A DNA stretch of 64,000 nucleotides from an uncultured Enterobacteriaceae bacterium (GTDB taxonomy: Bacteria; Pseudomonadota; Gammaproteobacteria; Burkholderiales; SG8-39), in the NCBI GenBank assembly GCA_964552535.1, contig CAZKHE010000002.1, forward strand, positions 10,711 to 74,710, written 5' to 3'. The position numbers were made by a program, and so were the translations under genes. Positions within the stretch are counted from its first letter, which is position 1. The number at the start of each line of letters is the position of its first letter. Of the stretch, positions 5,722 to 34,354 are shown piece after piece. The notes under the pieces are model-generated. The model was not told where the DNA came from. It saw nothing but the letters and a program-made list of their open reading frames with translations, and ran no database searches.

Positions 5722-6051
5722 ATGCTGAACCTCAAGACCCTGGTTACCGGCCTTGCCCTGGCCGCGTCCTTTGCCTCCTTCAATGCCGTCGCCGCGGACG
5801 ACTGGTATCGCTCGACCGGCGGCGTGGCGCCCCACGCCATCGGCGACGAGTTCTATGCGCGCGGCACCGGCGGCGTGACCCCCAACGCGATCGGCGACGA
5901 GTTCTACGCTCGCGGCACCGGCGGCGTCGCGCCGGCGATCGCCGACGACTTCTTCGCGCGCGGCACCGGCGGCGTGACGCCGGGCGCGGTCAGCGACGAG
6001 TTCTATTCGCGCGGCACCGGCGGCATCGCTCCCCAGGCGCACGGCGAGTGA
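5722..6051 (+). CDS. Secreted TGGV-repeat protein P1 (5 repeats)
   Basis: SD GGAGA; signal peptide NAVA-A; repeats such as DEFYARGTGGVTPNAIG; three paralogues in the window. Confidence 0.9.
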   Translation: MLNLKTLVTGLALAASFASFNAVAADDWYRSTGGVAPHAIGDEFYARGTGGVTPNAIGDEFYARGTGGVAPAIADDFFARGTGGVTPGAVSDEFYSRGTGGIAPQAHGE

Positions 6052-6077
6052 TCGCGCGTCCGTGAAGCGGAGCGCAG

Positions 6078-6105
6078 GCGCGGGTCCCGGTGTCGGGATC
6101 CGCGC
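6078..6105 (+). terminator. GC-rich 12-bp hairpin after P1
   Basis: gcgcgggtcccg-gtgt-cgggatccgcgc (one G-U pair); no U tract, so possibly a stabiliser or attenuator. Confidence 0.45.
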
Positions 6106-6129
6106 GGCATTCATCGCAAAGGAAGCCGC

Positions 6130-6912
6130 ATGATGCTTCGCGCGTGCATGGCGTTGCTTGCCGCAGTCGTGACGCTCGCTCCGGGTACGGCGGACGCGCG
6201 GCGTTGCTCCGCGGTGTCCGGTCCCGATCGCGTCCCGTTGATCGAGCTCTATACCTCCGAGGGTTGCGACAGTTGTCCGCCCGCGGACCGCTGGCTCGCG
6301 ACGACCGCCGCGGAGGCCTTCAAGGCGGGACGCGCCGTGCCGCTCGCGCTGCACGTCGATTACTGGGATCACCTCGGCTGGCGCGACCCCTACGCGTCGG
6401 CGCAGTTCAGCGCACGTCAGCGGGCATCGGCGCAGCGCGCCAACAGCCGCGTCATCTACACGCCGCAGGTGCAGGTGAACGGCCGCGATTTCCGCGGCTG
6501 GGGAGATCGCCGCGCAGTGGCGCGTGCGCTCGACGCCGGCGGCGGACCCGCACGGGCGAAGCTCGCGCTGGAGGCCACGCAACAGGGCGCCGCACCGTGG
6601 ACCATCGCCGTGAACGCGGAGGCGGCGGGCGAGACGGCACGCGGCGCGGGGGTCTACCTCGCGCTCTACGAAAGCGGCCTGGTGTCGCAGGTGAAGGCCG
6701 GCGAGAACCGCGGCGCGACGCTGCGGCACGACTTCGTCGTGCGCGAATGGCTCGGGCCGCTGCCGCTCGACGCGACCGGACGCTTGAGCGACACGCGGAC
6801 GCTGCCGGCGCGCGTGGACATCGACTACTCGCGCGCCGGAATCGCGGCCTTCGTGCAGGATGCGCGCGGCGAGATCCTGCAGACGCTCGCGCTGCCGCTC
6901 TGCGGCGGCTGA
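6130..6912 (+). CDS. DUF1223 thioredoxin-like secreted protein
   Basis: ELYTSEGCDSCPPAD (CxxC), LHVDYWDHLGWRDPY, YTPQVQVNG, GENRGATLRHDFVVR. Confidence 0.9.
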   Translation: MMLRACMALLAAVVTLAPGTADARRCSAVSGPDRVPLIELYTSEGCDSCPPADRWLATTAAEAFKAGRAVPLALHVDYWDHLGWRDPYASAQFSARQRASAQRANSRVIYTPQVQVNGRDFRGWGDRRAVARALDAGGGPARAKLALEATQQGAAPWTIAVNAEAAGETARGAGVYLALYESGLVSQVKAGENRGATLRHDFVVREWLGPLPLDATGRLSDTRTLPARVDIDYSRAGIAAFVQDARGEILQTLALPLCGG

Positions 6913-6950
6913 TGCGCTGATTCGCGGGCGGGCGTACCGAGGCGGGACCG

Positions 6951-8330
6951 CTACACGGGCTTGAGATCCCCCAGCACCGTCGGCACCAGCTCCGCCACCG
7001 TCGGATGGATGTGCACGGCGTGCTTCAGCGTCGTGTAGGGCTGGCGCGCGTACATCGTCTGCAGGATGGTGTGCACCACCTCGTCCCCGCCGACGCCGAG
7101 GATCGCGGCGCCCAGGATCTCCTGCGAGTCGGCGTCCGTCATGACCTTGATGAAGCCCTGGGTCTCGCCCTTCTCGATCGCGCGCCCGACGCGCGACATC
7201 GGCCGCTTGCCGACGAGCACCTTGCGGCCGGCCTTCTGCGCCTCGGCGAGCGTCATGCCCGCACGGCCGAGCGGCGGGTCGATGAACAGGCCGTAGGTCG
7301 CGATGCGGTCGGTCACGCGCCGCGCGGCGCCGTCGAGCAGGTTGTCGGCGACGATCTCGTAGTCGTTGTACGCGGTGTGCGTGAATGCGCCGCGGCCGTT
7401 GCAGTCGCCCAGCGCCCAGACGCCCGGCACCGAGGTCTCCAGCGTGTCGTTCACCTTGATGTAGCCGCGCGCGTCGGTCTCGATGCCGGCGCGGTCGAGC
7501 CCGAGGTCGTCGGTGTTGGGGAGCCGCCCGATCGCGAGCAGCGCGGCGCTGGCCTCGATGCGCGGGGCGCCCTCGACGCACTCGAGTTTGACCGCCACGC
7601 CGCCCGCGCACGGCGCCAATGCGAGGCACTTCGCATCGACGCGGACCGCGACGCCTTCACGCTCGAGGATGGCGCGCACCTCGGCGGACACGTCCTCGTC
7701 CTCGCGCCCGATGAGCCGCGGCCCCATCTCGACGACGGTCACGCGGCTGCCGAAGCGCCGGTACATGTGCCCGAACTCGAGGCCGATGTAGCTCCCGCCG
7801 ACGATGACGAGATGCTCCGGCACGAAGTCCACGTGCATGATGGACGAGCTGGTGAAGTGCGGCGTGACGTCGGCGCCGGCGACCCCGCGCGTGCTCGGCC
7901 GCCCGCCGACGTTGATGAAGATGCGCGGCGCCTCGAGCGTCTCGCCGTTCACCTCGACGGTGTGCGGCCCGGTGAAGCGCGCGTGGCCGCGAAACACCGA
8001 GATGCGCTCGTGGCCCGTCATCCACTTCTCGACGATCTCCCGCGAGCGGCCCACGACCTCGTCCTTGCGCGCCTTGACGCGCTGCATGTCGATGCGCGGC
8101 GGGGCGTCGAGCACCACGCCGTACTCGGCGGCGCGCTGCGCGGCGCGCGCGACGGCGGCGCTCGCGACGAGGGTCTTGGTCGGGGTGCAGCCGGTGTTCA
8201 CGCACGTGCCGCCGAAGCGGGCACGCTCGATGATCGCGACCTGCATGCCGGAGCGTGCGAGGCGGTCGGCCATGGCGGGTCCCGCCTGGCCGGTGCCGAT
8301 GACGATGGCGTCGAAGCGCGCGGCAGTCAT
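6951..8330 (-). CDS. Pyridine nucleotide-disulfide oxidoreductase (RclA/MerA-like family, not MerA)
   Basis: GTGQAG FAD site, GGTCVNTGCTP redox disulfide, GGSYIGLE, HIHPTVAE; no C-terminal Cys pair. Confidence 0.9.
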   Translation of the reverse strand: MTAARFDAIVIGTGQAGPAMADRLARSGMQVAIIERARFGGTCVNTGCTPTKTLVASAAVARAAQRAAEYGVVLDAPPRIDMQRVKARKDEVVGRSREIVEKWMTGHERISVFRGHARFTGPHTVEVNGETLEAPRIFINVGGRPSTRGVAGADVTPHFTSSSIMHVDFVPEHLVIVGGSYIGLEFGHMYRRFGSRVTVVEMGPRLIGREDEDVSAEVRAILEREGVAVRVDAKCLALAPCAGGVAVKLECVEGAPRIEASAALLAIGRLPNTDDLGLDRAGIETDARGYIKVNDTLETSVPGVWALGDCNGRGAFTHTAYNDYEIVADNLLDGAARRVTDRIATYGLFIDPPLGRAGMTLAEAQKAGRKVLVGKRPMSRVGRAIEKGETQGFIKVMTDADSQEILGAAILGVGGDEVVHTILQTMYARQPYTTLKHAVHIHPTVAELVPTVLGDLKPV

Positions 8331-8363
8331 GGGCGCTCTCCCGGGTTGGGGAAAGTATGGAGT

Positions 8364-9236
8364 CTAGGTCGAATGGCGCCGGCGCGCGTTCGCAACCAGC
8401 TCGCACAGCCCGGCGAGCGCCGGCGACTGGTCGTTCGCGCGCCAGACGAGGGGCGTGACGACGTCGGCGTGCACGCGCGGCAGGCGGTGCCGGCTGACGG
8501 CGGCGTGCTGGACCGTGTCGAGGACCGATTCCGGGACGAGCGCGATCCCGGTTCCCGACGCGACGCACGCGACGATGGCGTGATACGACGCGAGCTCGAG
8601 CACGCGGATCGAGGCGATGCGCTGTTCGCCCAGCCAGCGCTGCAGCACGCGACGGTACGCGCACCCGTTGGGGAAGGCGATGACGGAGTCGCCCGCTGCG
8701 TCGTGCGGGCGGCGGATCGGCGGGTGGTCGCTCGAGGCGATGAGCACCAGGCGCTCGGCGAACGCGGCCTGGTGCGCGAGGCCATCGTCCGCGGGCGTCT
8801 CCGCGACGAACGCGGCCTCGACGCGCCGCTCGCGGACGGCGGCGGTGAGCGCGTCGTTGGTGCCGGTCGTCAGCTCGACGCGCACATCCGGATAGGCCGC
8901 GTGATACGCGGACAGGATGCCCGGCAGCCGGCTCGCCGTGGTGCTCTCCAGTGCGCCGAGCTTCAGCACGCCCGACGGCGCGGCGCCGGTGAGCGCGGCG
9001 CGCGCCTGCTCGGAGAGATCGAGCAGGCGCTCGGCATACTCGAGCAAGGCCTGGCCGCTGCGCGACAGCACGAGCCGCTGCTTCTCGCGCACGAAGAGCT
9101 GCACGCCCACCGAGGCCTCGAGCTGCCGGATGCGCGTGGTGACATTGGAGGGCACGCGGTGCAGCTTGCGGGCGGCGCCGCCGATGCCGCCTTCCTGCAC
9201 CACGGCGCGGAAGATTCGCAGGTCCGACAGTTCCAT
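8364..9236 (-). CDS. LysR-type transcriptional regulator
   Basis: MELSDLRIF...AARKLHRVPSNVTTRIRQLE HTH; ATG 9236; divergent from the MFS gene. Confidence 0.93.
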   Translation of the reverse strand: MELSDLRIFRAVVQEGGIGGAARKLHRVPSNVTTRIRQLEASVGVQLFVREKQRLVLSRSGQALLEYAERLLDLSEQARAALTGAAPSGVLKLGALESTTASRLPGILSAYHAAYPDVRVELTTGTNDALTAAVRERRVEAAFVAETPADDGLAHQAAFAERLVLIASSDHPPIRRPHDAAGDSVIAFPNGCAYRRVLQRWLGEQRIASIRVLELASYHAIVACVASGTGIALVPESVLDTVQHAAVSRHRLPRVHADVVTPLVWRANDQSPALAGLCELVANARRRHST

Positions 9237-9240
9237 CGGT

Positions 9241-9311
9241 CTTCTCCAATCCGGAACAAGCTGTTCCCGGTTATTCACTATCCGGGAGCACCACGCGAGG
9301 CTAACATGATC
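9241..9311. promoter_or_regulatory. LysR divergent control region: TTC-N9-GAAC (T-N11-A) plus palindrome GGAACA-agc-TGTTCC
   Basis: Dyad at 9242-9257, palindrome at 9253-9267, candidate -10 TAACAT at 9303-9308. Confidence 0.55.
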
Positions 9312-9316
9312 GCGTC

Positions 9317-10492
9317 ATGCACCCCACGCTCCCGGTTTCTCCCCTCGCGACGGCGCTCGTCGGCCTCGCGGCGCTCGCGGCGGCGATGGGCATCGGCCGC
9401 TTCGCCTTCACGCCGCTCCTGCCCCTGATGCAGCAGCACGGCGAGGTGACGCTCGATGCGGGCGCCTGGCTCGCGGCCGCCAACTACGTGGGCTACCTGT
9501 GCGGCGCGCTCGCGTGCACGTTCCTGCCCATGCGGCCGGGCACGATGGCGCGCATCGGCCTGGCCGGCGTCGCCGTGTCCACGCTCGCGATGGGCGCCAC
9601 GGCATCGATGGGGGCGTGGCTCGCGCTCCGGCTGCTCGCCGGCGTGGCGAGCGCCTTCGTGCTGGTCGGCGTTTCCGGATGGACGCTCGCGCGCCTCGCC
9701 GCGGCGCGGCGCGGGCAATGGGCAGGCTGGGTGTACGCGGGCGTCGGCGCGGGGATCGCGCTCGCCGGCGTGGTCGCACTCGTCGCCGCCACGCGGGGCG
9801 CTTCGCCGGCGGACGCGTGGATCGCGCTCGGAGCGATCGCCGGCGGCGTCGCGCTCGTCGCGTGGCGCACGTTCGCGCGAGCGGGTGGTGGGGCGACCGC
9901 GGCGACGCCGGCCGGGCGCGGGTCGTTCACGCCGGCCACGTGGGGCCTCGTCGCGTGCTACGGCGTGTTCGGCTTCGGCTACATCCTGCCGGCGACGTTC
10001 CTGCCCGCGGCTGCACGCGAGCTCGTCGCCGATCCATCGGTGTTCGGCTGGACGTGGCCCGTCTTCGGCGTGGCCGCGGCGGTGTCGACGGTCGTCGCGT
10101 CGCTCGCCCTGCCGCGCGCCGAGCCGCGCGCCGTGTGGGGCGCGAGCCACGCGGTGATGGCGTTCGGCGTGGCGCTGCCGTTCGTCGCCCCCGGTCTGCC
10201 CGCGCTCGTCGCGTCCGCGCTCTGCGTCGGCGGGACGTTCATGGTCGCCACGATGGCCGGCCTGCAGGAGGCGCGTCGCCTCCACGGCGTCGCAGCGCCG
10301 CGTCTGATGGCGGCGATGACGACCGCCTTCGCGCTCGGCCAGATCCTCGGGCCCGTCGCCGTGCGGTTCATGCCCGCGCAGGCCGACCCGATGCGCGCGC
10401 CGAGCCTCGCTGCCGCCGCGCTGCTCGCCCTCACCGGCGCAGCGCTTGTCCTGTCCTCGCGGCGCGCCAGCGCGACCGCGCTCAACCTGTGA
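9317..10492 (+). CDS. YbfB/YjiJ-family MFS transporter
   Basis: AMGIGRFAFTPLLPLM, AAANYVGYLCGAL; about 12 TM segments. Confidence 0.9.
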   Translation: MHPTLPVSPLATALVGLAALAAAMGIGRFAFTPLLPLMQQHGEVTLDAGAWLAAANYVGYLCGALACTFLPMRPGTMARIGLAGVAVSTLAMGATASMGAWLALRLLAGVASAFVLVGVSGWTLARLAAARRGQWAGWVYAGVGAGIALAGVVALVAATRGASPADAWIALGAIAGGVALVAWRTFARAGGGATAATPAGRGSFTPATWGLVACYGVFGFGYILPATFLPAAARELVADPSVFGWTWPVFGVAAAVSTVVASLALPRAEPRAVWGASHAVMAFGVALPFVAPGLPALVASALCVGGTFMVATMAGLQEARRLHGVAAPRLMAAMTTAFALGQILGPVAVRFMPAQADPMRAPSLAAAALLALTGAALVLSSRRASATALNL

Positions 10493-10502
10493 GGTGCCGC
10501 AC

Positions 10503-11069
10503 ATGATCGCCGACCGCATGCCGATGCTTTCCCGCGAACAGATGAACGAGGCGCAGCGCGCCGCGGCCGACGAGCTGATCGCCGGTCCGCGCAAGGCCGT
10601 GTTCGGGCCGTTCATCCCGCTGCTGCGCAGCCCCGGGCTGCTCGCCACGATGCAGAAGGTGGGCGAGTACCTGCGCTTCCACAGTCCGCTGCCTCGCCGG
10701 GCGGCGGAGTTCGCCACGCTGGTCGTGTCGCGGCAGTGGACGCAGCACTTCGAATGGCACGTGCACCTGCCGCTCGCACGCCAGGCGGGCACCGCCGCCG
10801 AGACCCTCGACGACCTGCGCGCCGGACGCCGTCCGCGCGGCATGAGCGACGAGGAGGGGCTCGTCCACGATTTCATCGTGGAGCTGACGGCGAACAAGGG
10901 CGTGAGCGACGCGACGTACGCGGCCGCCGTCGAGCGGTTCGGCGAGGCGGGGGTGATGGACCTCGTCGGCGTGATCGGCTACTTCACCGCCATCTCGATG
11001 GTGCTCAACGTGGCGGGCACGCCGGGGGCGCCGACGGCGGGGGCGGCGCCATTGCCGCCCCTGCCGTGA
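10503..11069 (+). CDS. Carboxymuconolactone decarboxylase (AhpD-like) family protein
   Basis: GPFIPLLRSP, EFATLVVSRQW, FEWHVH, DLVGVIGYF. Confidence 0.85.
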   Translation: MIADRMPMLSREQMNEAQRAAADELIAGPRKAVFGPFIPLLRSPGLLATMQKVGEYLRFHSPLPRRAAEFATLVVSRQWTQHFEWHVHLPLARQAGTAAETLDDLRAGRRPRGMSDEEGLVHDFIVELTANKGVSDATYAAAVERFGEAGVMDLVGVIGYFTAISMVLNVAGTPGAPTAGAAPLPPLP

Positions 11070-17644: not shown

Positions 17645-17673
17645 TGTATCCGAATCGATCCGGCCTGCGTACT
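17645..17673 (+). promoter_or_regulatory. ECF-type promoter TGTATCC-N16-CGTACT
   Basis: Same -10 (CGTACT) as the P1 and P4 promoters and the same 16-bp spacer as P1; A-tract GAGAAAAAC upstream. Confidence 0.6.
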
Positions 17674-17730: not shown

Positions 17731-18737
17731 ATGACTCGTGCCAGACACGTGCCGCCCATGCTGCTCGCCGCTGCGGCCGCGGCAATGACCGCCTTGCCCG
17801 CCTCCGCCCAGGTCGATCCGGCCGCGGCCGTCGACCAGTTCGAAGCCACGTTCGGCAAGTACGAGGGCTATCGCCGCTCCGGCGCCAAGGGCGTCTGCGC
17901 GGTCGGTGAATTCACCGGGAGCGCGGAGGCACGCGCGCTGTCCACCGCGTCGGCGTTCAGCGGGAAACCCGTACCGGTCATCGCGCGTTTCTCGGTCGGC
18001 GGCGCGAACCCCAAGGCGCCCGACAACGCGCGGACCCAGCGCAACATGGCGCTGCAGTTCAACCTGCCCAACGGCGAATCCTGGCAGATGGGCAACATCT
18101 CCGCGCCGGTCTTCGGCGCCGCCACGCCGGAACAGCTGATCGGCCGGCTCAAGTCGCTGCAACCGGATCCGACGACGAAGGCCGCCGATCCGGCCAAGGT
18201 CAAGGCTTTCGCCGATGCCAACCCCGAGGTGCTGGCGCAGGGCCGCTACTTTGCGAGCCAGCCGGTGCCGGCGAGCTTCGCCACGGTGAACTACTGGGGC
18301 GTGCACGCGTTCGGCTTCGTCAACGCCAAGGTGAGAAGCAGTGGGGCAAGTGGGTGTTCGAGCCCGTCGGCGGCACGCAGGGGCTGAGCGACGAGGAGGC
18401 CAAGGCGAAGGGCACGGACTTCCTGATCGGCGACCTTCGCCAGCGCGCGGCGAGCGGGTCGGTGGCGTTCGACTTCATGCTGCAGCTCGCGCAGCCGGGC
18501 GACCGCCTCGACAGCGCGGTGACGCCCCTGCCCGACGACCGCCGGAAGGTGAATCTCGGCCGCCTCGTGATCAAGTCCGTGTCGCCCGACATGACCGGCG
18601 AATGCCTCACCATCACCTACAACCCGATGATCCTGCCGAAGGGCGTGGAGCCCTCGGCCGATCCGATGCTCGCGGCGCGCGCGGCGCCGTATGCCGTAGG
18701 CCTCGGACGGCGGTTGGCCGAAGGCGCGAAGCAGTAG
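17731..18737 (+). pseudogene. Catalase-related (SrpA-like) heme protein split by an apparent 1-nt deletion near 18330
   Basis: ORF 17731..18387 (signal peptide, RRSGAKG, NYWGVHAF) continues in another frame as GEKQWGKWVFEP...ARAAPY (ORF 18354..18737); adding one G at aag|gtgag restores a single frame. Confidence 0.8.
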
Positions 18738-18784: not shown

Positions 18785-18892
18785 CGTTCGGTTCCGGCGA
18801 ACGATGAATTGCGCGCAGGACGGTTTTTCTCGCGAGGCCGAGCGGTCACACTGCAAGCCATGGAGTCGCCCAACGCAAAAAAGCGGCTCCGG
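18785..18892 (+). promoter_or_regulatory. LysR-type activated promoter for P2: CGTTC-N9-GAACG dyad plus candidate -10 CACACT
   Basis: Gap-free match to 33413-33520 (constant offset 14628; 56/70 nt identical over the 3' part). Confidence 0.7.
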
Positions 18893-18931: not shown

Positions 18932-19255
18932 ATGATCCGCAACATTCTCGCCATCACCGCCGCCGCCTTCGGCATCGCTTCCACCAGCGCCATCGCGGCG
19001 GACGACTGGTATCGCTCCACCGGCGGCGTGTCGCCGAATGCGCAGGAAGACTTCTATGCCCGCGGCACGGGCGGCGTGAGCCCGAACGCGATCGCGGACG
19101 ACTTCTATGCTCGCGGCACGGGCGGCGTGACGCCCAACGCGATCGCCGACGATTTCTACGCGCGGGGCACCGGCGGCGTCGCCCCGCAGGCGGTCAGCGA
19201 CGAGTTCTACGCCCGCGGCACGGGCGGCGTCGCGCCGCAGTCGCACGCCGAGTAA
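18932..19255 (+). CDS. Secreted TGGV-repeat protein P2 (107 aa, 5 repeats)
   Basis: SD AAGGAG; signal SAIA-A; tail of ORF 18341..19255. Confidence 0.9.
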   Translation: MIRNILAITAAAFGIASTSAIAADDWYRSTGGVSPNAQEDFYARGTGGVSPNAIADDFYARGTGGVTPNAIADDFYARGTGGVAPQAVSDEFYARGTGGVAPQSHAE

Positions 19256-19289: not shown

Positions 19290-19338
19290 CGCCGCGAGGC
19301 CCCGGTTCACGGGCGCCTCGCGGCGCTTCGTCTTTGTT
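19290..19338 (+). terminator. Intrinsic terminator after P2
   Basis: cgccgcgaggc/gcctcgcggcg 11-bp stem plus inner cccg/cggg, followed by cttcgtctttgtt. Confidence 0.6.
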
Positions 19339-19942: not shown

Positions 19943-19946
19943 ACCG

Positions 19947-21066: not shown

Positions 21067-21226
21067 TGCCGTCCTCCGTCGAACCGCAGCCGGGACAGCT
21101 TAGCGCAGGGCCGTTGCCCGGCAATGACAGTGGCATAACCGGCGTGGCGTAGTCCACGTTCGGTCGACCGCCGTGCCGGGCGCCGCGCGCCCCAACCGTT
21201 GGCACGCCGCTTGCGCCGCCCGTGGC

Positions 21227-21610
21227 ATGGGCGACGACATCGGCAAGCTGATCCTGCGCATCACGCTGGGCGGGCTCATGCTGCTCCACGGCATCGCAAA
21301 GGTCATCGGCGGCGTCGCCGGTGTGGAGAAGATGCTCGGCGGGGTCGGACTGCCCGCGGCGCTCGCGCTCGGCGTGTACGTCGGCGAGGTACTCGCGCCG
21401 CTCCTGGTGCTGCTCGGCTTCTACGCGCGCGTCGGCGCCGGGATCATCGTGATCAACATGCTCTTCGCCGTGCTGCTCGCGCATCGCGGCGATCTCTTCT
21501 CGCTCACCCGGACGGGCGGCTGGGCGCTCGAGCTGCAGGCGTTCTTCCTGCTCACCGCGCTGGCGCTCGCCTTCATGGGCCCGGGGCGCTTCGGCATCAA
21601 CCGGCGCTAG
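21227..21610 (+). CDS. DoxX family membrane protein
   Basis: GKLILRITLGGLMLLHG, GEVLAPLLVLLG, GGWALELQ. Confidence 0.9.
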   Translation: MGDDIGKLILRITLGGLMLLHGIAKVIGGVAGVEKMLGGVGLPAALALGVYVGEVLAPLLVLLGFYARVGAGIIVINMLFAVLLAHRGDLFSLTRTGGWALELQAFFLLTALALAFMGPGRFGINRR

Positions 21611-27185: not shown

Positions 27186-27195
27186 CCGTGCGTGG

Positions 27196-28977: not shown

Positions 28978-28982
28978 CGGCG

Positions 28983-30197
28983 TCAGGCGGCCGGCATCAG
29001 CTCGACCTTGACCCAGCCGGGCTCGCGCCGGTCGAAGGCCTCGTAGGCGCCGATCACTTCGGAGAGCGGTTCGATCTCGGTCAGCACCTCGGTCGGGTCG
29101 ATCGCGCCGCTGCGCACGAGCTCGATGAGATGCGGGACGTAGCGCCGATGGTTGCAGTTGCCCATCTTGATGGTGATGTTCTTGTTCATCGCCTCGCCGA
29201 GGGGAAAGCTGTCCATCGACGGCGGATACACGCCGATGATCGAGAGCGTCCCGGCCTTCGCCAGCGCCTGCACCGCCCACTGCAGCGCCTGGCTCGGCGC
29301 GTCGCCGGGCTGCCACTGGCCGTCGTGCGGATGCTGCTCGGGCGCGACTTTCTGCACCTCCGCTTCGAACGTCTTCTGCTGCTGCACCGCCTTCTCGGCT
29401 GCCGGGCCGGCGTGCGCATGCTCGGCATCCACGCCCACCGCATCGATCACCCGGTCCACGCCGATGCCGCCCGTCATCGCGAGGATCGTCTCGACCGGAT
29501 CCTCGCGATCGAAATTGACGCACTCGGCGCCCTGACGGCGCGCCATGGCCAGCCGGTCGTCCCGATGGTCCACGGCAATGACGCGGCCCGCTCCGAGCAT
29601 CCGCGCCGAGGCGATCGCGAACTGTCCGACGGGCCCGCAGCCGAATACCGCGACGGTGCGGCCTTCCTCGATGTCGGCCAGCTCGGCGCCGAACCAGCCG
29701 GTGGGAAAGATGTCGGAGAGCAGGATCGCCTGGTCGTCGTTCACCTCGTCGGGCAGCTTCACCATGTTCACGTGGGCGTAGGGGATGCGGGCCTTCTCCG
29801 CCTGCAGCCCGTTGAACGGCCCGCTGGGGCCGGGTCCGCCGAAGAACGCGGTGCCCGCGCGCTTGCCCTGCGGGTTGGCGGTGTCGCACTGGGAGAAGTA
29901 GCCGGATCGGCAATAGCTGCAGAAGCCGCAGGCAATGGTGGACGTGACGACCACCCGATCGCCCACGTCGAAGTTGCGCACCATCGGGCCGAGCTGCTCC
30001 ACCACGCCGACCGCTTCGTGGCCGAGGATCGTTCCGGCCTCCATGCCAGGAAAGGTGCCGCGGATCATGTGCAGATCCGTCCCGCAGATGGCCGAGGCGG
30101 TGATGCGGATGACCGCGTCGGTGGGCTGCTCGACCTTCGGTTCGGGGACGTCGTCGAGCCGGATGTCGCCGATGCCGTGGAAGACGACTGCTTTCAT
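28983..30197 (-). CDS. Zn-dependent alcohol/formaldehyde dehydrogenase (MDR family)
   Basis: MKAVVFHG, ICGTDLH, GHEAVG, ACGFCSYCRSGYFSQC, LSDIFPTGW. Confidence 0.92.
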   Translation of the reverse strand: MKAVVFHGIGDIRLDDVPEPKVEQPTDAVIRITASAICGTDLHMIRGTFPGMEAGTILGHEAVGVVEQLGPMVRNFDVGDRVVVTSTIACGFCSYCRSGYFSQCDTANPQGKRAGTAFFGGPGPSGPFNGLQAEKARIPYAHVNMVKLPDEVNDDQAILLSDIFPTGWFGAELADIEEGRTVAVFGCGPVGQFAIASARMLGAGRVIAVDHRDDRLAMARRQGAECVNFDREDPVETILAMTGGIGVDRVIDAVGVDAEHAHAGPAAEKAVQQQKTFEAEVQKVAPEQHPHDGQWQPGDAPSQALQWAVQALAKAGTLSIIGVYPPSMDSFPLGEAMNKNITIKMGNCNHRRYVPHLIELVRSGAIDPTEVLTEIEPLSEVIGAYEAFDRREPGWVKVELMPAA

Positions 30198-30262
30198 GAG
30201 AGGTGCTCCGCTGCGAGAGGGCGATCCGTCCCGCGCTCGCAGGGATCGTGCCGGCGTGGCGT

Positions 30263-30913
30263 CTACTGCGCGGCCTCTGCCTTGGGACCCGGCGCGTACT
30301 GGTCCACCGCTTCGGCCATCTCGGTCAGCGTGCGCTCCATCGACTTCGCCCCGTAGGGATAGAACGCCGACTTGTCTCCTGCGTCCCACTGCTTCCGGAG
30401 CTCGGGGCGGCCGAGGTCCCAGTCGGCCCGCATCTCTTGTGTGAGACCGCGGAGGCGCTCGTGCAGCTCCCCCGTGGAAGGCCGTCCCCAGTAGTAGTAG
30501 CCGTTCCACACGCTGTGGATGCGCAACTTCGGGGCGAGCAGGACCGTGTGCGGCACCATCGGCTCGTGCGACGGATCGGTGTACTCCAGGATGTCCAGCT
30601 CGTCGCGCACCACGTGCGCCTCGTCGTACAGGAAGGTGTAGCTCGCGCCGAGCTGCTGGCGCAGGTTGTTAGTGGTGTGCCAGTCGTCGCTGGTGATCAC
30701 GACGAGGTGGCAGCTTCCGACGACGAGCTGCGGATGGAATGCCGTCAGTTCCTTCAGCTGCTGGCGGTCCTTCGGACAGAAGAAGCCGCGGATGAGGACG
30801 ACGAGCATCGGATCGGCCGTCCCCTGCAGCGCGGACAGGCGGCGCAGCGTCTGCGTGTGGTCGGGCAGCTCGAAGTCCGGGAAAGTCTCACCGGGTTTGA
30901 TGTCGGGTCGCAT
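30263..30913 (-). CDS. Redoxin-domain protein (single Cys, RGFFCPKD)
   Basis: PGETFPDFELPDHT, VLIRGFFCPKD, YYYWGRPS; ATG 30913. Confidence 0.8.
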   Translation of the reverse strand: MRPDIKPGETFPDFELPDHTQTLRRLSALQGTADPMLVVLIRGFFCPKDRQQLKELTAFHPQLVVGSCHLVVITSDDWHTTNNLRQQLGASYTFLYDEAHVVRDELDILEYTDPSHEPMVPHTVLLAPKLRIHSVWNGYYYWGRPSTGELHERLRGLTQEMRADWDLGRPELRKQWDAGDKSAFYPYGAKSMERTLTEMAEAVDQYAPGPKAEAAQ

Positions 30914-31118
30914 GGGCGGCAGGCCGGCGCGCCGGCGGGAAGGGGGTGCGCGATGGCAAGCAACCGACATGCCGCGGCCGTCGCTCGGCGATCCGGGAGC
31001 GCTGCGTTCGGCCATCAGGCTATGATCGCGGCCGCACTTCCTTCCCTCATCGGAGCAGATACGCCGTGCAACGACCGCAGCATGAATGGCCCGACGGCCT
31101 CTCCGTCGGGGCGACACG

Positions 31119-31841
31119 GTGACGCCCGCGCCGGCCCTGGCGCAGCTCGCGCCGCACGGCGTGCTGCGCGCCGGGATGAACCTCACCAACACGCTCTTCG
31201 CCCAGCAGGATGCCGCCAGCGGCGAACTGCGCGGGGTGGGCGTGGACCTGATGCGCGAGCTCGCCGCGCGACTCGGCGTGCCGCTCGAGCTCGTCGTGCA
31301 CGCCACGCCGGGCGAGGTCGCGGATGCGGCGAGCGCGGATACCTGGGACGCGGCCATCCTCGCGATCGAGCCGGCGCGCGCGCAGGCCATCGCGTTCTCG
31401 CCGCCGCTCAGCGAGATCGAGGCGACCTATGCGGTGCGCCGCGACTCGCCCTGGCGCGACGCGGCCGGGATCGATGCGCCCGGCGTGCGGATCGCCGCGG
31501 CGGCCAAGGCCGGGTACGAGCTGTACCTCACGCGCACGCTGCGCCACGCGACGCTGCTGCGCACGCCGGGCATCCCCGCCTCGATCGAGCTGTTCGAGGC
31601 CGGTAGGGTCGACGCGGTGGCGGCGCTGCGCCCGATGCTGCTCGAGCTCATCGCCCGCATGCCCGATGCACGGCTCGTGGAGGGTAACTTCATGTTGATC
31701 AATCACGGCATCGGGACGCCGCGAGGGCGGACGGCCGCCGCGGCCTACCTCGACGACTTCGTGCGCGACCTGAACGTCAGCGGGTTCGTCGCCGCCGCGA
31801 TTGCGCGGCACGGGGTGAAGGGGCTGACGGCGGTGAGGTGA
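31119..31841 (+). CDS. Family-3 solute-binding-like protein without signal peptide
   Basis: LAPHGVLRAGMNLTN, GVGVDLMRELAARLG, YELYLTRTL; start GTG 31119 (or 31086). Confidence 0.8.
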   Translation: MTPAPALAQLAPHGVLRAGMNLTNTLFAQQDAASGELRGVGVDLMRELAARLGVPLELVVHATPGEVADAASADTWDAAILAIEPARAQAIAFSPPLSEIEATYAVRRDSPWRDAAGIDAPGVRIAAAAKAGYELYLTRTLRHATLLRTPGIPASIELFEAGRVDAVAALRPMLLELIARMPDARLVEGNFMLINHGIGTPRGRTAAAAYLDDFVRDLNVSGFVAAAIARHGVKGLTAVR

Positions 31842-31852
31842 CGCAGGGCACG

Positions 31853-31921
31853 ATGCGGGCCTTCAACGACGAGCAGTGGATCGGCGCACGGGTGCCCCCG
31901 GGCACGCCGCAGGAGATCCTC
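31853..31921 (+). pseudogene. Relic of a Bug/TctC C-terminal segment
   Basis: MRAFNDEQWIGARVPPGTPQEIL resembles WxGxxxPxxTPxxV(I) in the intact Bug genes at 38913 and 58894. Confidence 0.5.
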
Positions 31922-31970
31922 AGTCCGGATGGCCGAGGACATGCGCGTCGCGCCCCCCGAGGGCCCGCCC

Positions 31971-32141
31971 TCAGGCCGCGCGCGACGCCTTGAGGATCGC
32001 GCGCTTCACCCGCGGGTACGTGCCGCAGCGGCAGAGATCGGTGATGCGCTCGTCGATGTCGGGCTGGCCCGCCGCCATCAGCATCCCGCTCTGGCAGTAG
32101 CCGCACTGCGACACCTGCTCCTCGATCCACGCCTGCTGCAG
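31971..32141 (-). pseudogene. Relic of a [2Fe-2S] small subunit (IorA/CoxS/XdhA family), C-terminal half with internal deletion
   Basis: LQQAWIEEQVSQCGYCQSGMLMAA-GQP-DIDERITDLCRCGTYPRVKRAI*; no start codon and no N-terminal ferredoxin domain. Confidence 0.8.
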
Positions 32142-32185
32142 CCGCGCCTCGGGCGTCGCGGCGTCTCGAGGCGGCCGACGCGCGC

Positions 32186-32491
32186 CACGAGCTCGAGCCC
32201 CTGTTCGAGGAGCGGCACCTGTGCCTGTTCAATCCGAAGCTGGTCGGACGGCATGCGGTGCTCAAGCTGGAGGACTACCTGCGCTACCCGCATGTGCTGC
32301 TCGCGCACGCCGGCGACCTGTCCGGCGTGGTCGACAGGACGCTCGAGCAGAAGAAGCGCCGGCGACGGGTCCTCGCGACGACGCCGTATGCGGTGTCGCT
32401 GAAGTGGTACGCGCGCAGCCGCGGCGATGCCGGGCTGCTGTGGATGCGCGAACTGTTGAAGCGCCTGGCGCCGGAACGCGCCGCGAGCTAG
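32186..32491 (+). pseudogene. Relic of a LysR substrate-binding domain (NodD/LeuO-like) with internal deletion
   Basis: EPLFEERHLCLFNP...LEDYLRYPHVLL..GDLSGVVD...RRVLATTP|YAVSLKWYARS...WMRELL*; no HTH. Confidence 0.7.
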
Positions 32492-32501
32492 CGGCGCGGC
32501 A

Positions 32502-33008
32502 TCACCGCTTCCGGCGCAGCAGCGTGCCCGGCGACTTCGCCTCCGTCTCCAGCCACTCGATCGCGGTGGCGATGCGGCGTGCTCGCGTCGCCGCGGTCTT
32601 CGCGCCGGCCACCAGGTAGGCGAGCGCGCGCTGCTTGCCCGCGGTGAGGCCTTGCCATGCTTTGCTCGCCGTTCGATGCGCGGCGAGCGCTTGTGCGAGG
32701 TCGGCCGGCACGTCGACCGCATCCGGATCGTCGAGGCTGAAGCGAACGGCCACGCGGTCGCCGAGGTGCAGGCCCGCCTCACGGCAGAGCCGCGGCGACA
32801 CCATTGCGTAACGCCGGCCGCCGGGCGCGGGTTGCCACGCCGCGCGCACGGGGTGATCGGCGATCTCTCCGACGAAGCGCAGCCGCGGATTGCGCTCGAA
32901 CGGCAGTCGGGCCGCCAGCCGCGGCGTCATGAAGATGACGCGATAGGTGTAGCGGCCGAGGTTGTGCGTCTCCAGCACGCCCTCGAACTCGTGCTCGAAT
33001 GCGCTCAT
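32502..33008 (-). CDS. DUF1905 + YdeI/OmpD-associated domain protein
   Basis: FEGVLE, LRFVGEIAD, VDVPADLAQAL, WQGLTAGKQR, TRARR. Confidence 0.85.
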   Translation of the reverse strand: MSAFEHEFEGVLETHNLGRYTYRVIFMTPRLAARLPFERNPRLRFVGEIADHPVRAAWQPAPGGRRYAMVSPRLCREAGLHLGDRVAVRFSLDDPDAVDVPADLAQALAAHRTASKAWQGLTAGKQRALAYLVAGAKTAATRARRIATAIEWLETEAKSPGTLLRRKR

Positions 33009-33092
33009 GGACTCCGTTGGTGGTTGCCCGCGGGGAGCGTTCGCCGCAGCCGGGCTTGCTAGACTCACCGGGTTCTCATCCTTCCGGCCATC

Positions 33093-33374
33093 ATGCCCGA
33101 GCCTTTCCTGGGCGACATGGTGATCGTCGAGCGCGGCCTCACGTTCACCGAAGCGCATATCGCGTGCTCGTGCCTGCGCGCCGCCGGCATTCCCGCGCAG
33201 GTCGGCGACGTGCACATCGTGCAGACCGACCCGCTGCTGTCCATCGCCGTGGGCGGAGCGTGCATCCGCGTGCCCGAGGCACGCGTCGCGGCCGCGCGCC
33301 AGGTGCTCGACGCGTACGCGCGCGGCGAGTACGACCTGGGCGAGGGGTTCGACCCCGGCGCCGGGCCCCGATAG
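33093..33374 (+). CDS. DUF2007 putative signal-transducing protein
   Basis: EAHIACSCLRAAGIPA, GGACIRVPE. Confidence 0.8.
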   Translation: MPEPFLGDMVIVERGLTFTEAHIACSCLRAAGIPAQVGDVHIVQTDPLLSIAVGGACIRVPEARVAAARQVLDAYARGEYDLGEGFDPGAGPR

Positions 33375-33390
33375 GCGGGGGAACGCCGCT

Positions 33391-33412
33391 CAGCCCCGGT
33401 TTTGGGGCTGTT
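33391..33412 (+). terminator. Hairpin after the DUF2007 gene
   Basis: cagcccc-ggtttt-ggggctg followed by tt. Confidence 0.4.
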
Positions 33413-33520
33413 CGTTCAGCCAAACTGAACGATCCTTTCTTTCCAGCCCCGTTTTTCTCTTCCCGCCGAGCAGCCACACTGCAGGCCATGGAGTCGCCAA
33501 ACACGGAAGTGCGGCTCCGG
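33413..33520 (+). promoter_or_regulatory. LysR-type activated promoter for P3 (CGTTCAG-N5-CTGAACG; candidate -10 CACACT)
   Basis: Colinear copy of 18785-18892. Confidence 0.7.
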
Positions 33521-33555
33521 ACCCTACAGTCAACTTCGTCAGGAAAGGAAACGCC

Positions 33556-33864
33556 ATGATCCGCAAGACCCTCGGCCTCACCGCCATCGCCCTCGCGCTC
33601 TCCGCCAACGCCGCCCTCGCGGCCACCGACTACAACCTCGGCACTGGCGGCGTCCCGCCCCAGGTGAACGAAGACTTCTACGCCCGCGGCACCGGCGGCG
33701 TCTCGCCCAACGCCTACGACGACTACGCCCGCGGCACGGGCGGCGTCTCCCCGAACGCCTACGACGACTTCGCCCGCGGCACCGGCGGCGTCCCGCCCCA
33801 GGTGAACGACGACTTCTACGCCCGCGGCACCGGCGGCGTGGCGCCGCAGGCGACCGCGGAGTAA
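33556..33864 (+). CDS. Secreted TGGV-repeat protein P3 (102 aa, 5 repeats)
   Basis: SD AGGAAAGGA; signal AALA-A; repeats DDYARGTGGVSPNAY. Confidence 0.9.
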   Translation: MIRKTLGLTAIALALSANAALAATDYNLGTGGVPPQVNEDFYARGTGGVSPNAYDDYARGTGGVSPNAYDDFARGTGGVPPQVNDDFYARGTGGVAPQATAE

Positions 33865-33867
33865 CGC

Positions 33868-33897
33868 GGCTTCGCGTGGAGATCCGCTTCGGTTACA
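33868..33897 (-). promoter_or_regulatory. ECF-type promoter TGTAACC-N16-CGAAGCC facing antisense into P3
   Basis: Boxes and spacing identical to 5570-5541. Confidence 0.6.
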
Positions 33898-33928
33898 GCA
33901 CGGCGAGAAAACATTCTTCCGCCCGACC

Positions 33929-33977
33929 TGAAACCGAAGCGCCGCATGCCAACGTACTAACGGTCAGATCGCGGCGA
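33929..33977 (+). promoter_or_regulatory. ECF-type promoter TGAAACC-N17-CGTACT plus conserved leader for P4
   Basis: 33953-33977 matches 5635-5659 at 24/25 nt. Confidence 0.65.
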
Positions 33978-34036
33978 TCACGCAAACAGCGAAGCGCCGA
34001 GCGGTCCCGCCCGACACCATTCAAGGAGACTCGATC

Positions 34037-34354
34037 ATGAAACTGAAGACCATCGCTTCCAGCCTCGCCCTCGCGGCGTCCCTCGTGTCCGTCAACGCCA
34101 TCGCGGCCGACGACTGGCACCGTTCGACCGGCGGCGTGCCGCCCCAGGCGTATGACGACTTTGCCCGCGGCACGGGCGGCGTGACGCCGAACGCGTACGA
34201 CGACTTCGCGCGCGGCACGGGCGGCGTCTCGCCCAACGCGATCGACGACTCGTTCTACGCGCGCGGCACCGGCGGCACCTCGCCCCAGGCCGTGAGCGAC
34301 GAGTTCTACGCGCGCGGGACCGGCGGCGTGGCGCCCCAGTCGCACGCCGAGTAA
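34037..34354 (+). CDS. Secreted TGGV-repeat protein P4 (105 aa, 5 repeats)
   Basis: SD AAGGAG; signal NAIA-A; signal peptide most similar to that of P1. Confidence 0.9.
   Translation: MKLKTIASSLALAASLVSVNAIAADDWHRSTGGVPPQAYDDFARGTGGVTPNAYDDFARGTGGVSPNAIDDSFYARGTGGTSPQAVSDEFYARGTGGVAPQSHAE

What the first reader, a model, noticed from the sequence alone, without database searches (positions are those of the whole stretch)
5722..34354. Family of four secreted five-repeat TGGV proteins: candidate multi-core peptide system
Seen: four paralogues (5722-6051, 18932-19255, 33556-33864, 34037-34354) of 102-109 aa. Each has an SD, a Sec signal with an AxA cleavage site, exactly five 15-17 aa units (consensus [DE][DE]FYARGTGGVxP[NQ]A) and a C-terminus PQ(A/S)(H/T)(G/A)E. 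The mature parts have no Cys or Lys. Three of the four are followed by a strong hairpin, and they use two shared promoter classes. I recognise no named family. Inference: signal peptide plus repeated cores plus an ECF16-like promoter parallels the Sec-exported RiPP precursors of metal stress (bufferin, oxazolin), but these proteins are Cys-free, so any chemistry would be different. Alternatives are an unmodified periplasmic metal/ligand buffer, a beta-solenoid or functional amyloid, or processed signalling peptides.
Basis: partly seen in the sequence, partly recalled or inferred. Interest (0 to 1): 0.92.

Follow-up and report, generated by a model that had tools for sequence, protein, structure and literature searches.

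The report
Stress-regulated secreted repeat proteins, unnamed family
Four small exported proteins built from 15-17-residue 'TGGV' repeats are real genes of a very rare, unnamed family, and they look like the periplasmic output of an oxidative/metal-stress sigma factor (ECF16, SigF/NrsF type) rather than precursors of modified peptides.

Summary
The mature parts have no Cys, Lys or Met. Three of the four are followed by hairpins, and there are two classes of upstream region. The genes are under purifying selection (dN/dS 0.13-0.29). No Pfam, NCBIfam, PDB or literature match exists. An exhaustive profile search of 1.84 billion representatives found about seven true clusters. Members carry 2-5 units, and R, T, G, G and P are invariant in 91-93 of 93 units.

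TGGV1 and TGGV4, and orthologues in about 12 metagenomic loci, sit behind G(T/A)AACC-N16/17-CGTA. This is paired back-to-back with a perfect ECF16 consensus, GTAACC-N16-CGAA. In two related contigs the family flanks nrsF directly, and sigF-nrsF in one of them. No maturase (MNIO, rSAM, lasso) lies in the 64 kb window, and none is recorded in the annotated related loci. Neighbours are redox and detoxification genes.

The best reading is unmodified periplasmic stress proteins that occupy the niche of MrpX or the bufferins with different chemistry. Whether they fold is unresolved: AlphaFold gave pLDDT 49 on one alignment and 65 (all-beta) on another. The RiPP reading is unsupported but not excluded.

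The parts
5722..6051 (+). TGGV1 gene (signal peptide 5722-5793, mature 85 aa, five units)
   Evidence: An identical protein was called on metagenome contig L033/L051. dN/dS is 0.29 against L025.
18932..19255 (+). TGGV2 gene (signal 18932-18997, mature 85 aa, five units)
   Evidence: dN/dS is 0.13-0.15 against L010 and L023. The upstream in-frame ATG at 18860 is not a conserved start.
33556..33864 (+). TGGV3 gene (signal 33556-33621, mature 80 aa, five units). No terminator hairpin follows it.
34037..34354 (+). TGGV4 gene (signal 34037-34105, mature 82 aa, five units), in tandem with TGGV3
   Evidence: The orthologous tandem pair is in L041.
5613..5638 (+). ECF16-type promoter of TGGV1: GTAACC-N16-CGTA, followed by the conserved CTACCGGTCAGATCGC
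   Evidence: Consensus from PMC3511200 and PMC8315932.
5544..5569 (-). Back-to-back partner promoter GTAACC-N16-CGAA (perfect ECF16 consensus), 62 nt upstream of the VOC/glyoxalase-family gene
   Evidence: It is conserved, with a diverged spacer, in L010, L019, L023, L025, L028, L032, L033, L041 and L044.
5015..5482 (-). Glyoxalase/VOC-family gene, divergent from TGGV1 and probably co-regulated with it
   Evidence: PF00903, 1e-17; promoter
5639..5721 (+). Leader of TGGV1 with a 5' stem, GAUCGC (5649-5654) pairing with GCGAUC (5685-5690)
   Evidence: The same stem appears in most of the 15 leaders folded independently, and it covaries in L007b (GACCGCC/GGCGGUC). The MAFFT/RNAalifold alignment failed to show it.
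33930..33956 (+). ECF16-type promoter of TGGV4: GAAACC-N17-CGTA, followed by CTAACGGTCAGATCGC
33871..33896 (-). Partner promoter GTAACC-N16-CGAA pointing antisense into TGGV3
   Evidence: The same arrangement occurs in orthologous locus L041 with a different spacer.
33957..34036 (+). Leader of TGGV4 (5' stem GAUCGC 33967-33972 pairing with GCGGUC 34001-34006)
18785..18890 (+). Second upstream class, here before TGGV2. It holds the dyad CGTTC-N9-GAACG (18785-18803), GTTTTTC (18823-18829), N17, CACACT (18847-18852), then CCATGGAGTCGCC and the hairpin GGAGTCGC/GCGGCTCC (18862-18890).
33413..33518 (+). The same upstream class before TGGV3 (dyad 33413-33431, GTTTTTC 33451-33457, CACACT 33475-33480, hairpin 33490-33518)
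6078..6105 (+). 12-bp GC hairpin after TGGV1 (no U tail), before the DUF1223 gene
19290..19325 (+). Intrinsic-terminator-like hairpin with a U-rich tail after TGGV2
34372..34407 (+). 16-bp perfect hairpin after TGGV4
6130..6912 (+). DUF1223 gene (CxxC-containing, N-terminus looks like a signal peptide). It is a recurrent neighbour of the family.
   Evidence: PF06764, 4.5e-54. It is adjacent to TGGV genes in three arrangements: the window/L033, L032/L044 and L049.
17646..17671 (+). Weaker ECF16-like site GTATCC-N16-CGTA, 60 nt upstream of the catalase-related gene, followed by CTTGCAGACGC and a 5' stem
   Evidence: It has one mismatch and is inferred only.

Best explanation
The four genes encode small (about 8.1-8.7 kDa), acidic proteins that the Sec system exports to the periplasm, where the signal peptide is cut after AxA. 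Each mature chain displays five copies of a strictly conserved motif, aromatic-x-R-x-T-G-G-V-x-P-(Q/N)-A, joined by Asp/Glu linkers.

TGGV1 and TGGV4 are transcribed from ECF16 (SigF/NrsF-type) promoters. They are therefore switched on when the membrane anti-sigma factor senses oxidative, reactive-chlorine or metal stress, together with cytoplasmic detoxification enzymes (a VOC/glyoxalase-family protein here, an RclA/MerA-like FAD oxidoreductase in relatives). TGGV2 and TGGV3 have a different upstream region, with a dyad operator and a sigma-70-like promoter. They probably give basal or separately regulated expression. The ECF16 partner promoter beside TGGV4 fires antisense into TGGV3.

I infer that the proteins act without dedicated modifying enzymes, and stoichiometrically, as a multivalent periplasmic protectant that binds or absorbs the stressor. 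This is the role that the Met-rich peptide MrpX/BcrX and the Cys-derived bufferins play in other ECF16 regulons, but the chemistry must differ because the chains have no Met, Cys or Lys.

Shown: gene reality, the export signal, repeat conservation, promoter motifs, linkage to sigF-nrsF in relatives, and absence of maturases nearby. Inferred: induction by stress, the unmodified state, and the scavenger or buffer activity.
For: Real genes:
- ORFs, GC3 and dN/dS of 0.13-0.29.

Rare, unnamed family:
-.
- Both whole-collection scans of 185,579 species genomes found only chance hits.

Unit conservation:
- R 92, T 91, G 92, G 92 and P 93 of 93 units, with 2-5 units per protein.

ECF16 promoters:
- The window has five motif hits against 1.05 expected, and four of the five lie in the two TGGV intergenic regions.
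- There are 30 hits in 124 kb of related loci, most of them directly upstream of TGGV genes or back-to-back with them.
- Published consensus: GTAACC-N16-CGAA and (T/C)GTAAC-N17-CGAA.
- Brucella bcrX/bcrS has the same back-to-back layout.

Physical linkage to the sigma system:
- L007 reads TGGV, ECF sigma, NrsF, TGGV. The sigma gene has its own GTAACC-N16-CGAA.
- L052 has the same synteny around NrsF.
- L050 is divergent from another ECF sigma/anti-sigma pair.

Neighbours are redox and detoxification genes, with no maturase:
-.

Precedents for a small Sec-exported peptide as the effector of an ECF16 regulon:
- MrpX (PMC4436054), BcrX (PMC8315932) and the bufferins (PMC11626156).
Against: - No sigF-nrsF pair lies in the window itself, so the regulator is inferred from motifs and from relatives.
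- Only two of the four paralogues carry the ECF16-type promoter.
- The -10 element of the TGGV promoters is CGTA or CGGA rather than the consensus CGAA.
- Near-invariance of five positions in every unit is more than a simple sacrificial sponge needs. It points to a specific partner, ligand or fold.
- The residues most reactive to hypochlorite (Met, Cys, Lys) are absent (established chemistry, my knowledge), so an MrpX-like sink for that oxidant is unlikely.
- One AlphaFold run gave an all-beta model with pTM 0.57.
- There are no expression or mass data of any kind.
Confidence: 0.45

Rival explanations
1. The repeats fold, one strand or rung per unit, into a small beta-sheet or beta-solenoid. 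It may stack between molecules (amyloid-like) or be stabilised by bound cations on the Asp/Asp ladder. The proteins would then be structural or ion-binding elements of the envelope rather than flexible scavengers.
For: - AlphaFold on the mature-only alignment gave a best model with pLDDT 65 and pTM 0.57. It is all-beta, with one long strand per unit.
- The Foldseek list is dominated by beta-solenoids and functional amyloids: FapC, bactofilin, ice-binding proteins and CsgA.
- Stacking would explain invariant G, G, P, T and R in every unit, the specialised first and last units, and the freely varying unit number of 2-5.
Against: - The other four models scored 37-50, and the 17-sequence full-length run gave pLDDT 49 and pTM 0.17.
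- No Foldseek match is significant (best E 0.24, TM at most 0.46).
- AlphaFold is known to draw beta-solenoids for tandem repeats (my knowledge).
- The scanned ORFs hit no curli-type (csgB/E/F/G) or Fap-type assembly or export family. No CsgA or FapC chain matched the family profile.
- Members with two units (36-aa mature, P0011) cannot form a monomeric solenoid.
- Net charge is -6.
Confidence: 0.2
2. Each unit is a recognition peptide for a periplasmic sensor, protease or binding protein. The proteins would then act as signalling or feedback ligands, for example modulating NrsF or a protease, and not as protectants.
For: - The strict 12-residue motif is repeated 2-5 times, and the first unit and C-terminal tail are conserved.
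- In L007 and L052 the genes lie immediately beside the anti-sigma gene nrsF, which in L007 follows the sigma gene.
- DUF1223 is a recurrent neighbour in three arrangements.
Against: - No candidate receptor is conserved in all contexts.
- Four paralogues per genome, behind strong stress promoters, suggest bulk production rather than a signal.
Confidence: 0.1
3. Multi-core precursor: the units are modified or cut out (for example after the single Arg of each unit) by enzymes encoded elsewhere in the genome. This would give 15-17-residue Cys-free peptides.
For: - The proteins combine a Sec signal with repeated near-identical cores and a variable core number.
- Sec-exported RiPP precursors under SigF control exist (bufferins; PMC11626156).
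- Each unit has exactly one Arg and no Lys.
Against: - No MNIO, DUF2063, rSAM, YcaO, lasso or dedicated peptidase lies near any copy. This holds for the window ORFs scanned and for the annotated related contigs.
- Contexts are heterogeneous.
- There is no Cys, Ser/Thr-Cys or other classic modification pair.
- The whole unit is conserved, with no conserved core set in variable spacers.
Confidence: 0.07
4. The ORFs are not functional genes, just repeats that happen to be open in a GC-rich genome.
For: - None of the four exact sequences is in the 15-billion-protein collection.
- Gene callers skipped some orthologues (L010 9239-9562, L015 6519-6848).
Against: - dN/dS is 0.13-0.29 and GC3 is 0.91-0.97.
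- SD sites, signal peptides and terminators are conserved.
- Promoters are conserved across lineages that share only 45-60% identity.
Confidence: 0.02

Closest known systems
MrpX (Azospira suillum) / BcrX (Brucella), the methionine-rich 'MXKDX repeat' periplasmic peptides of ECF16 regulons
   Same: These are small, Sec-exported, low-complexity repeat proteins. They are driven by an ECF16 promoter that sits back-to-back with a second one, and are encoded next to sigF-nrsF, as the TGGV genes are in L007 and L052. They act stoichiometrically in the periplasm (PMC4436054; PMC8315932).
   Different: TGGV mature chains have no Met at all, no msrPQ/yedYZ neighbour and no sequence similarity. A strictly conserved 12-residue motif replaces compositional richness, so recycling by methionine sulfoxide reductase is impossible.
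Bufferins (BufA1/BufA2, DUF2282 and BUF_6/12Cys) and oxazolins: Sec-exported, MNIO-modified copper-binding RiPPs
   Same: These also have a Sec signal peptide, a size of 60-120 aa and a periplasmic location. In Caulobacter they belong to the SigF/NrsF regulon and serve as a stoichiometric metal buffer (PMC11626156).
   Different: Bufferins need Cys residues and an adjacent MNIO plus DUF2063 pair. TGGV proteins have no Cys, match no such profile and have no such neighbours. They are tandem repeats rather than a small fold predicted with good confidence.
Functional amyloid subunits CsgA (curli) and FapC
   Same: These are secreted proteins of a few imperfect repeats, with varying repeat number and specialised terminal repeats. 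They are the top, though non-significant, structural neighbours of the one confident-looking model.
   Different: There is no sequence or profile match, no Q/N-rich motif and no dedicated nucleator, chaperone or outer-membrane pore genes. The chains are acidic, and predictions are low-confidence and inconsistent.

Membership tests
ECF16 (SigF/NrsF-type) regulon | Promoter matching (T/C)GTAAC(C)-N16/17-CGAA at a suitable distance upstream | tested here: met
   TGGV1 has GTAACC-N16-CGTA (5613-5638) and TGGV4 has GAAACC-N17-CGTA (33930-33956). Perfect GTAACC-N16-CGAA partners lie at 5569-5544 and 33896-33871. The sites are conserved in about 12 related loci. This is not met for TGGV2 and TGGV3.
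ECF16 (SigF/NrsF-type) regulon | A cognate ECF sigma with a DUF1109/NrsF anti-sigma factor in the genome | tested here: inconclusive
   It is absent from the 64 kb window. It is present and flanked by TGGV genes in relative L007. NrsF is retained in L052. The rest of the source genome is not available.
ECF16 (SigF/NrsF-type) regulon | Sigma-dependent induction by oxidative, chlorine or metal stress | not testable with these tools
   This needs RNA-seq or reporters in sigF/nrsF mutants.
MrpX/BcrX methionine-rich peptides | High methionine content (about 20%) as the sacrificial residue | tested here: not met
   There are 0 Met in all four mature chains.
MrpX/BcrX methionine-rich peptides | Operon or neighbourhood with msrP/msrQ (yedYZ) | tested here: not met
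   No such family appears among the window ORFs scanned or among the related loci's called genes.
MrpX/BcrX methionine-rich peptides | Small Sec-exported repeat peptide under an ECF16 promoter | tested here: met
Bufferin/oxazolin RiPP precursors | Cys residues that are converted to thiooxazoles | tested here: not met
   There are 0 Cys.
Bufferin/oxazolin RiPP precursors | Adjacent MNIO (DUF692) enzyme and DUF2063 partner | tested here: not met
   They are not found in the window ORFs scanned or in the annotated related contigs. A DoxX gene at 21173-21610 stands alone.
Bufferin/oxazolin RiPP precursors | Match to DUF2282 or related precursor profiles | tested here: not met
   Pfam and NCBIfam gave only sub-threshold noise.
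Bufferin/oxazolin RiPP precursors | N-terminal Sec signal peptide | tested here: met
   Read from the sequences. No predictor was run.
Curli/Fap functional amyloids | Dedicated assembly and export genes (csgB/E/F/G or fapA/B/D/E/F) | tested here: not met
   None of the window ORFs scanned against Pfam hit such a family. The related loci were not searched for these genes specifically.
Curli/Fap functional amyloids | Repeats that fold as stacked beta-arches | tested here: inconclusive
   One of two AlphaFold runs gave an all-beta model with pTM 0.57, and the rest had low confidence. Foldseek found nothing significant.

The most novel reading that the evidence does not exclude
The TGGV units are a third, sulfur-free chemistry for ECF16 periplasmic defence, and there are two forms this could take. 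In the first, each unit is an exposed Tyr/Trp site, flanked by acidic residues and a Gly/Pro turn, that is sacrificially nitrated, halogenated or cross-linked. In the second, each unit is released or modified by unlinked enzymes as a Cys-free 15-17-residue peptide. Either way this would be a new class of ribosomal stress peptide with 2-5 cores per precursor.
Probability: 0.12. Interest if true: 0.85.

Novelty: new variant of a known kind. Interest (0 to 1): 0.55.

Why it matters
ECF16 (SigF/NrsF) systems protect the periplasm against hypochlorite, peroxide and metals. In each studied case the effector is a small exported peptide whose chemistry rests on sulfur: Met in MrpX/BcrX and Cys-derived heterocycles in the bufferins. 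A family wired into the same circuit but free of Met, Cys and Lys would show that the circuit can deploy a different protective principle. It would also give a compact, testable model: 8 kDa, five identical motifs, four paralogues with two regulatory programmes and a built-in antisense promoter.

The case also shows how small GC-rich genes escape annotation. None of the four exact sequences is in a 15-billion-protein collection, and several orthologues were not called. The family's narrow distribution limits its general reach.

Tried and rejected
- **Pfam and NCBIfam on the four proteins.** Only sub-threshold PHBC_N and SspL noise appeared, caused by the G-rich motif.
- **PDB profile search.** No hits even at E 10.
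- **Plasmid tblastn.** Only chance hits.
- **Rfam on the whole window.** Nothing.
- **The search for related loci on species genomes.** It matched 37 pattern stretches but confirmed none.
- **DNA-pattern rescan of the same collection.** Six hits, all chance matches in unrelated taxa. Both scans of that collection are now spent, and the family looks absent from the representative genomes.
- **Long hits in the exhaustive profile search** (P0018-P0025, P0030). These are unrelated repeats.
- **A leaderless upstream ORF 'MESPN' before TGGV2 and TGGV3.** Rejected, because its frame relative to the main ATG varies (0, 1 or 2) and one copy has a stop.
- **Sigma-54 and canonical sigma-70 promoters.** Not found.
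- **RNAalifold on the TGGV1/TGGV4-type leaders.** It failed because MAFFT misaligned the variable spacer. Single-sequence folds were used instead.
- **Organism identity.** It could not be established. Accession and sample strings found no paper. Gene content (TctC/Bug receptors, Porin_4, 71% GC, best DNA match at 75% to a Ralstonia megaplasmid gene) suggests Burkholderiales.
- **One dN/dS pair (L015b vs TGGV1).** It was misregistered and is ignored.

Full report
**1. The observation**

All four ORFs are present at the stated coordinates on the + strand: 109, 107, 102 and 105 aa. The window has 71% GC, so long spurious ORFs abound. These four nevertheless have third-position GC of 0.91-0.97 with second-position GC below 0.6, like the other credible genes.

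Each ORF is preceded by a GGAG/AGGAG-type ribosome-binding site. Each begins with a basic n-region, a hydrophobic core and an AxA|A site. This is my reading; no signal-peptide predictor was available.

The mature parts have the following properties:
- They are 80-85 aa, 8.1-8.7 kDa, pI 4.1-4.6 and net charge -6.
- They contain five TGG(V/I/T)xP motifs spaced 15-17 residues apart.
- They have no Cys, Lys or Met and at most one Leu.

Strong hairpins follow TGGV1, TGGV2 and TGGV4 but not TGGV3. A motif scan finds no fifth copy in the window.

Orthologue pairs from metagenomic contigs give dN/dS of 0.13-0.29. These are therefore protein-coding genes under purifying selection.

**2. How rare the family is**

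- Pfam and NCBIfam give nothing above noise.
- A profile of the family finds no PDB chain even at E 10.
- Motif strings occur in no paper in the library.
- A word-indexed search of 5.8 billion clusters returned 16 proteins, none carrying a functional family name.
- An exhaustive HMM search of 1.84 billion 50%-identity representatives returned 24 hits. Only about seven are true members; the rest are unrelated repeats.
- Two scans of 185,579 species-representative genomes found only chance matches.
- A metagenome scan gave 12 true loci out of 26, all at 65-71% GC.
- None of the window's four exact sequences is in the 15-billion-protein collection.
- Gene callers skipped some orthologues, for example L010 9239-9562 and L015 6519-6848. 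The family is therefore partly hidden by annotation, but it is also rare at the DNA level.

**3. Anatomy of the family**

I compared 23 distinct proteins with 2-5 units each, 93 units in all.
- Arg is present in 92 units, Thr in 91, the two Gly in 92 each and Pro in 93.
- An aromatic residue sits four positions before Thr in 90 units.
- The core is aromatic-x-R-x-T-G-G-V-x-P-(Q/N)-A, joined by Asp/Glu linkers.
- The first unit (DDW[YH]R[SAQ]TGGV) and the last unit with its tail (…RGTGGVAPQxHAE) are the best conserved. The middle units vary in number.
- The last unit is identical in protein between TGGV2 and TGGV4 but differs at many synonymous sites. That indicates selection on the protein rather than recent gene conversion.

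**4. Regulation, TGGV1/TGGV4 type**

TGGV1 and TGGV4 share CGTACTA(C/A)CGGTCAGATCGCGGCGA. Just upstream lie GTAACC-N16-CGTA (5613-5638) and GAAACC-N17-CGTA (33930-33956).

The experimentally defined Caulobacter SigF site is GTAACC-N16-CGAA (PMC3511200). The ECF16 consensus quoted for Brucella BcrS is (T/C)GTAAC-N17-CGAA (PMC8315932).

- The window has five motif hits against 1.05 expected, and four of them lie in the two TGGV intergenic regions.
- The same promoter, with the same downstream CTAnCnGTCAGATC, precedes orthologues in L010, L011, L015/16, L019, L023, L025, L028, L032, L033, L041, L044, L045 and L049.
- Diverged versions (GTAACG-N15-CGGA/CGAA, GTAAGC-N15-CGGA) precede the distant members in L007, L052 and L050.

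Nearly every such promoter has a partner, a perfect GTAACC-N16-CGAA on the other strand about 40 nt away. The hexamers are conserved but the spacers have diverged, which argues that the partner is kept by selection.
- In the window, one partner drives the VOC/glyoxalase-family gene (5015-5482).
- In L010 the partner drives an RclA/MerA-like FAD oxidoreductase.
- Elsewhere it points into the 3' end of a convergent gene: TGGV3 in the window and L041, DUF1223 in L032, Pirin in L019 and FMN_bind_2 in L028.
- Brucella bcrX and bcrS are arranged back-to-back in the same way.

**5. Physical link to the sigma system**

- In L007 (assembly GCA_964491825.1) the order is LysR, TGGV (76 aa), ECF sigma, NrsF, TGGV (93 aa), DUF3179. 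The sigma gene has its own GTAACC-N16-CGAA.
- A related contig from another metagenome (L052) keeps TGGV, NrsF, TGGV and DUF3179, although the sigma gene is missing there.
- A distant member (L050) is divergent from another ECF sigma with a short zinc-finger anti-sigma factor.
- The window itself has no sigma/NrsF homologue.

**6. Regulation, TGGV2/TGGV3 type**

TGGV2 and TGGV3 share a different 100-nt region with orthologues in L010, L015, L023 and L041, and in diverged form in L043 and L018. It contains, in order:
- a dyad, CGTTC-N9-GAACG, at constant spacing;
- GTTTTTC, then N17, then CACACT;
- CCATGGAGTCGCC and a hairpin.

The ATG inside this element is not a conserved reading frame. The hairpin shows only weak covariation. 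I read this as an operator plus a sigma-70-like promoter and leader. The binding protein is unknown.

Every genome fragment long enough to judge carries more than one copy. L010, L015/16, L023/28, L041 and the window carry both regulatory types. L007 and L052 carry two copies, both of the TGGV1/TGGV4 type.

**7. Context**

The 44 ORFs scanned from the window, most of them between 1 and 43 kb, encode the following:
- a VOC protein, DUF1223 (CxxC) and an FAD oxidoreductase;
- LysR regulators, an AhpD-like CMD protein and YdhR;
- a frameshifted catalase-related protein, two AHSA1/SRPBCC proteins and a NUDIX protein;
- DoxX, DUF6151, YCII, FMN_bind_2, an Rce1-like protease and TauE;
- AhpC/TSA, OmdA, DUF2007, an HpcH-type lyase and LpxR.

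Related contigs add Pirin, OsmC, HbpS-like, nitrobindin-like, Redoxin and thioredoxin/DsbD. The order is shuffled between relatives.

No MNIO/DUF692, DUF2063, radical-SAM, YcaO, lanthipeptide or lasso enzyme appears near any copy. DUF1223 is adjacent in three different arrangements, and a LysR gene in at least two lineages.

**8. Structure**

- AlphaFold with the 17-sequence full-length alignment gave pLDDT 49 and pTM 0.17.
- With the four mature paralogues alone, the best model reached pLDDT 65 and pTM 0.57. It is all-beta with one long strand per unit, but the other four models scored 37-50.
- Foldseek against the PDB found nothing significant (best E 0.24). The list is dominated by beta-solenoids and functional amyloids.
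- Composition sits on the order/disorder boundary.

The fold question is open.

**9. Interpretation**

Three lines of evidence place at least TGGV1, TGGV4 and their orthologues in an ECF16-type regulon. I put that at about 0.75.
- The promoter evidence.
- The sigF-nrsF linkage in relatives.
- The redox and detoxification neighbourhood.

In the ECF16 systems studied, the effector includes a small Sec-exported peptide that acts stoichiometrically:
- MrpX and BcrX are oxidised by hypochlorite and recycled by MsrPQ.
- Bufferins chelate copper.

The TGGV proteins occupy the same genomic and regulatory niche but have no Met or Cys. They are not members of either family (see the membership table). 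They may work like them, as a bulk periplasmic protectant made without a dedicated maturase.

The near-invariance of five positions per unit suggests a defined binding site or fold in each unit rather than mere composition. That is why the beta-fold rival (0.2) and the ligand rival (0.1) keep real weight.

The multi-core RiPP reading (0.07) is not excluded, because enzymes could be encoded elsewhere. Nothing found here supports it.

**10. Verdict**

- This is a new, very narrowly distributed family that looks like a new variant of a known design, a small exported effector of an ECF16 stress regulon.
- Interest is 0.55.

Noticed in passing
window 33871-33896 (-) and 5544-5569 (-); L041 738-763; L019 4777-4752; L032 8829-8804; L028 11290-11315: A perfect ECF16 consensus promoter travels back-to-back with the TGGV promoter. 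In several loci it points into the 3' end of a convergent gene, and in the window it points antisense across TGGV3. The hexamers are conserved while the spacers diverge. This suggests a functional antisense or divergent transcript, possibly a switch from TGGV3 to TGGV4 under stress.
   Followed up: partly
window 18785-18803 and 33413-33431; also L010, L015, L023, L041: A conserved dyad, CGTTC-N9-GAACG, at fixed spacing upstream of TGGV2/TGGV3-type genes looks like an operator for an unidentified regulator. The right half-site (CCGAACG) also appears just upstream of the -35 element in L019, L032 and L049.
   Followed up: partly
window 5649-5690 and 33967-34006; 15 related leaders: The TGGV1/TGGV4-type mRNA leaders start with a conserved stem, GAUCGC/GCGAUC, around a variable inner hairpin. 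It is recovered in most of the independent single-sequence folds and covaries in L007b. It may be a 5' stabiliser or a regulatory element.
   Followed up: partly
window 17731-18737 (+), promoter-like site 17646-17671: The catalase-related gene is split into two frames (17731-18387 and 18354-18737), whereas orthologues in L015 and L025 are in one frame. This is either a frameshift or a sequencing error. It is preceded by GTATCC-N16-CGTA with a similar downstream element, so it may belong to the same regulon.
   Followed up: partly
L052 6232-6511 vs L007 10232-11190: In L052 the ECF sigma gene that separates TGGV and nrsF in L007 is absent. A TTAACC-N16-CGAA site is left in front of nrsF.
   Followed up: partly
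L010 9239-9562; L015 6519-6848; window, all four genes: Family members are often not called by gene finders, or are called from an upstream in-frame ATG (P0001, P0002). Long opposite-strand ORFs overlap them, for example 5566-7629 (-) and 33893-34909 (-).
   Followed up: yes
window 30263-31390 (-) and 31086-31841 (+): The longest ORFs for the AhpC/TSA-domain protein and the SBP_bac_3 protein overlap by about 300 nt. At least one start codon is probably further in.
   Followed up: no
window about 10-27 kb; L010, L015, L025: A shuffled but shared island of small redox and detoxification genes (CMD, YdhR, AHSA1 x2, NUDIX, DoxX, DUF6151, YCII, FMN_bind_2, DUF2007) accompanies the TGGV genes in related organisms at 60-90% protein identity.
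   Followed up: partly
P0020 (616 aa): A protein with about 70-residue repeats carries 'GDYYSxTGGVGPIAxGTD', which resembles the TGGV core. It is probably a chance motif match.
   Followed up: no
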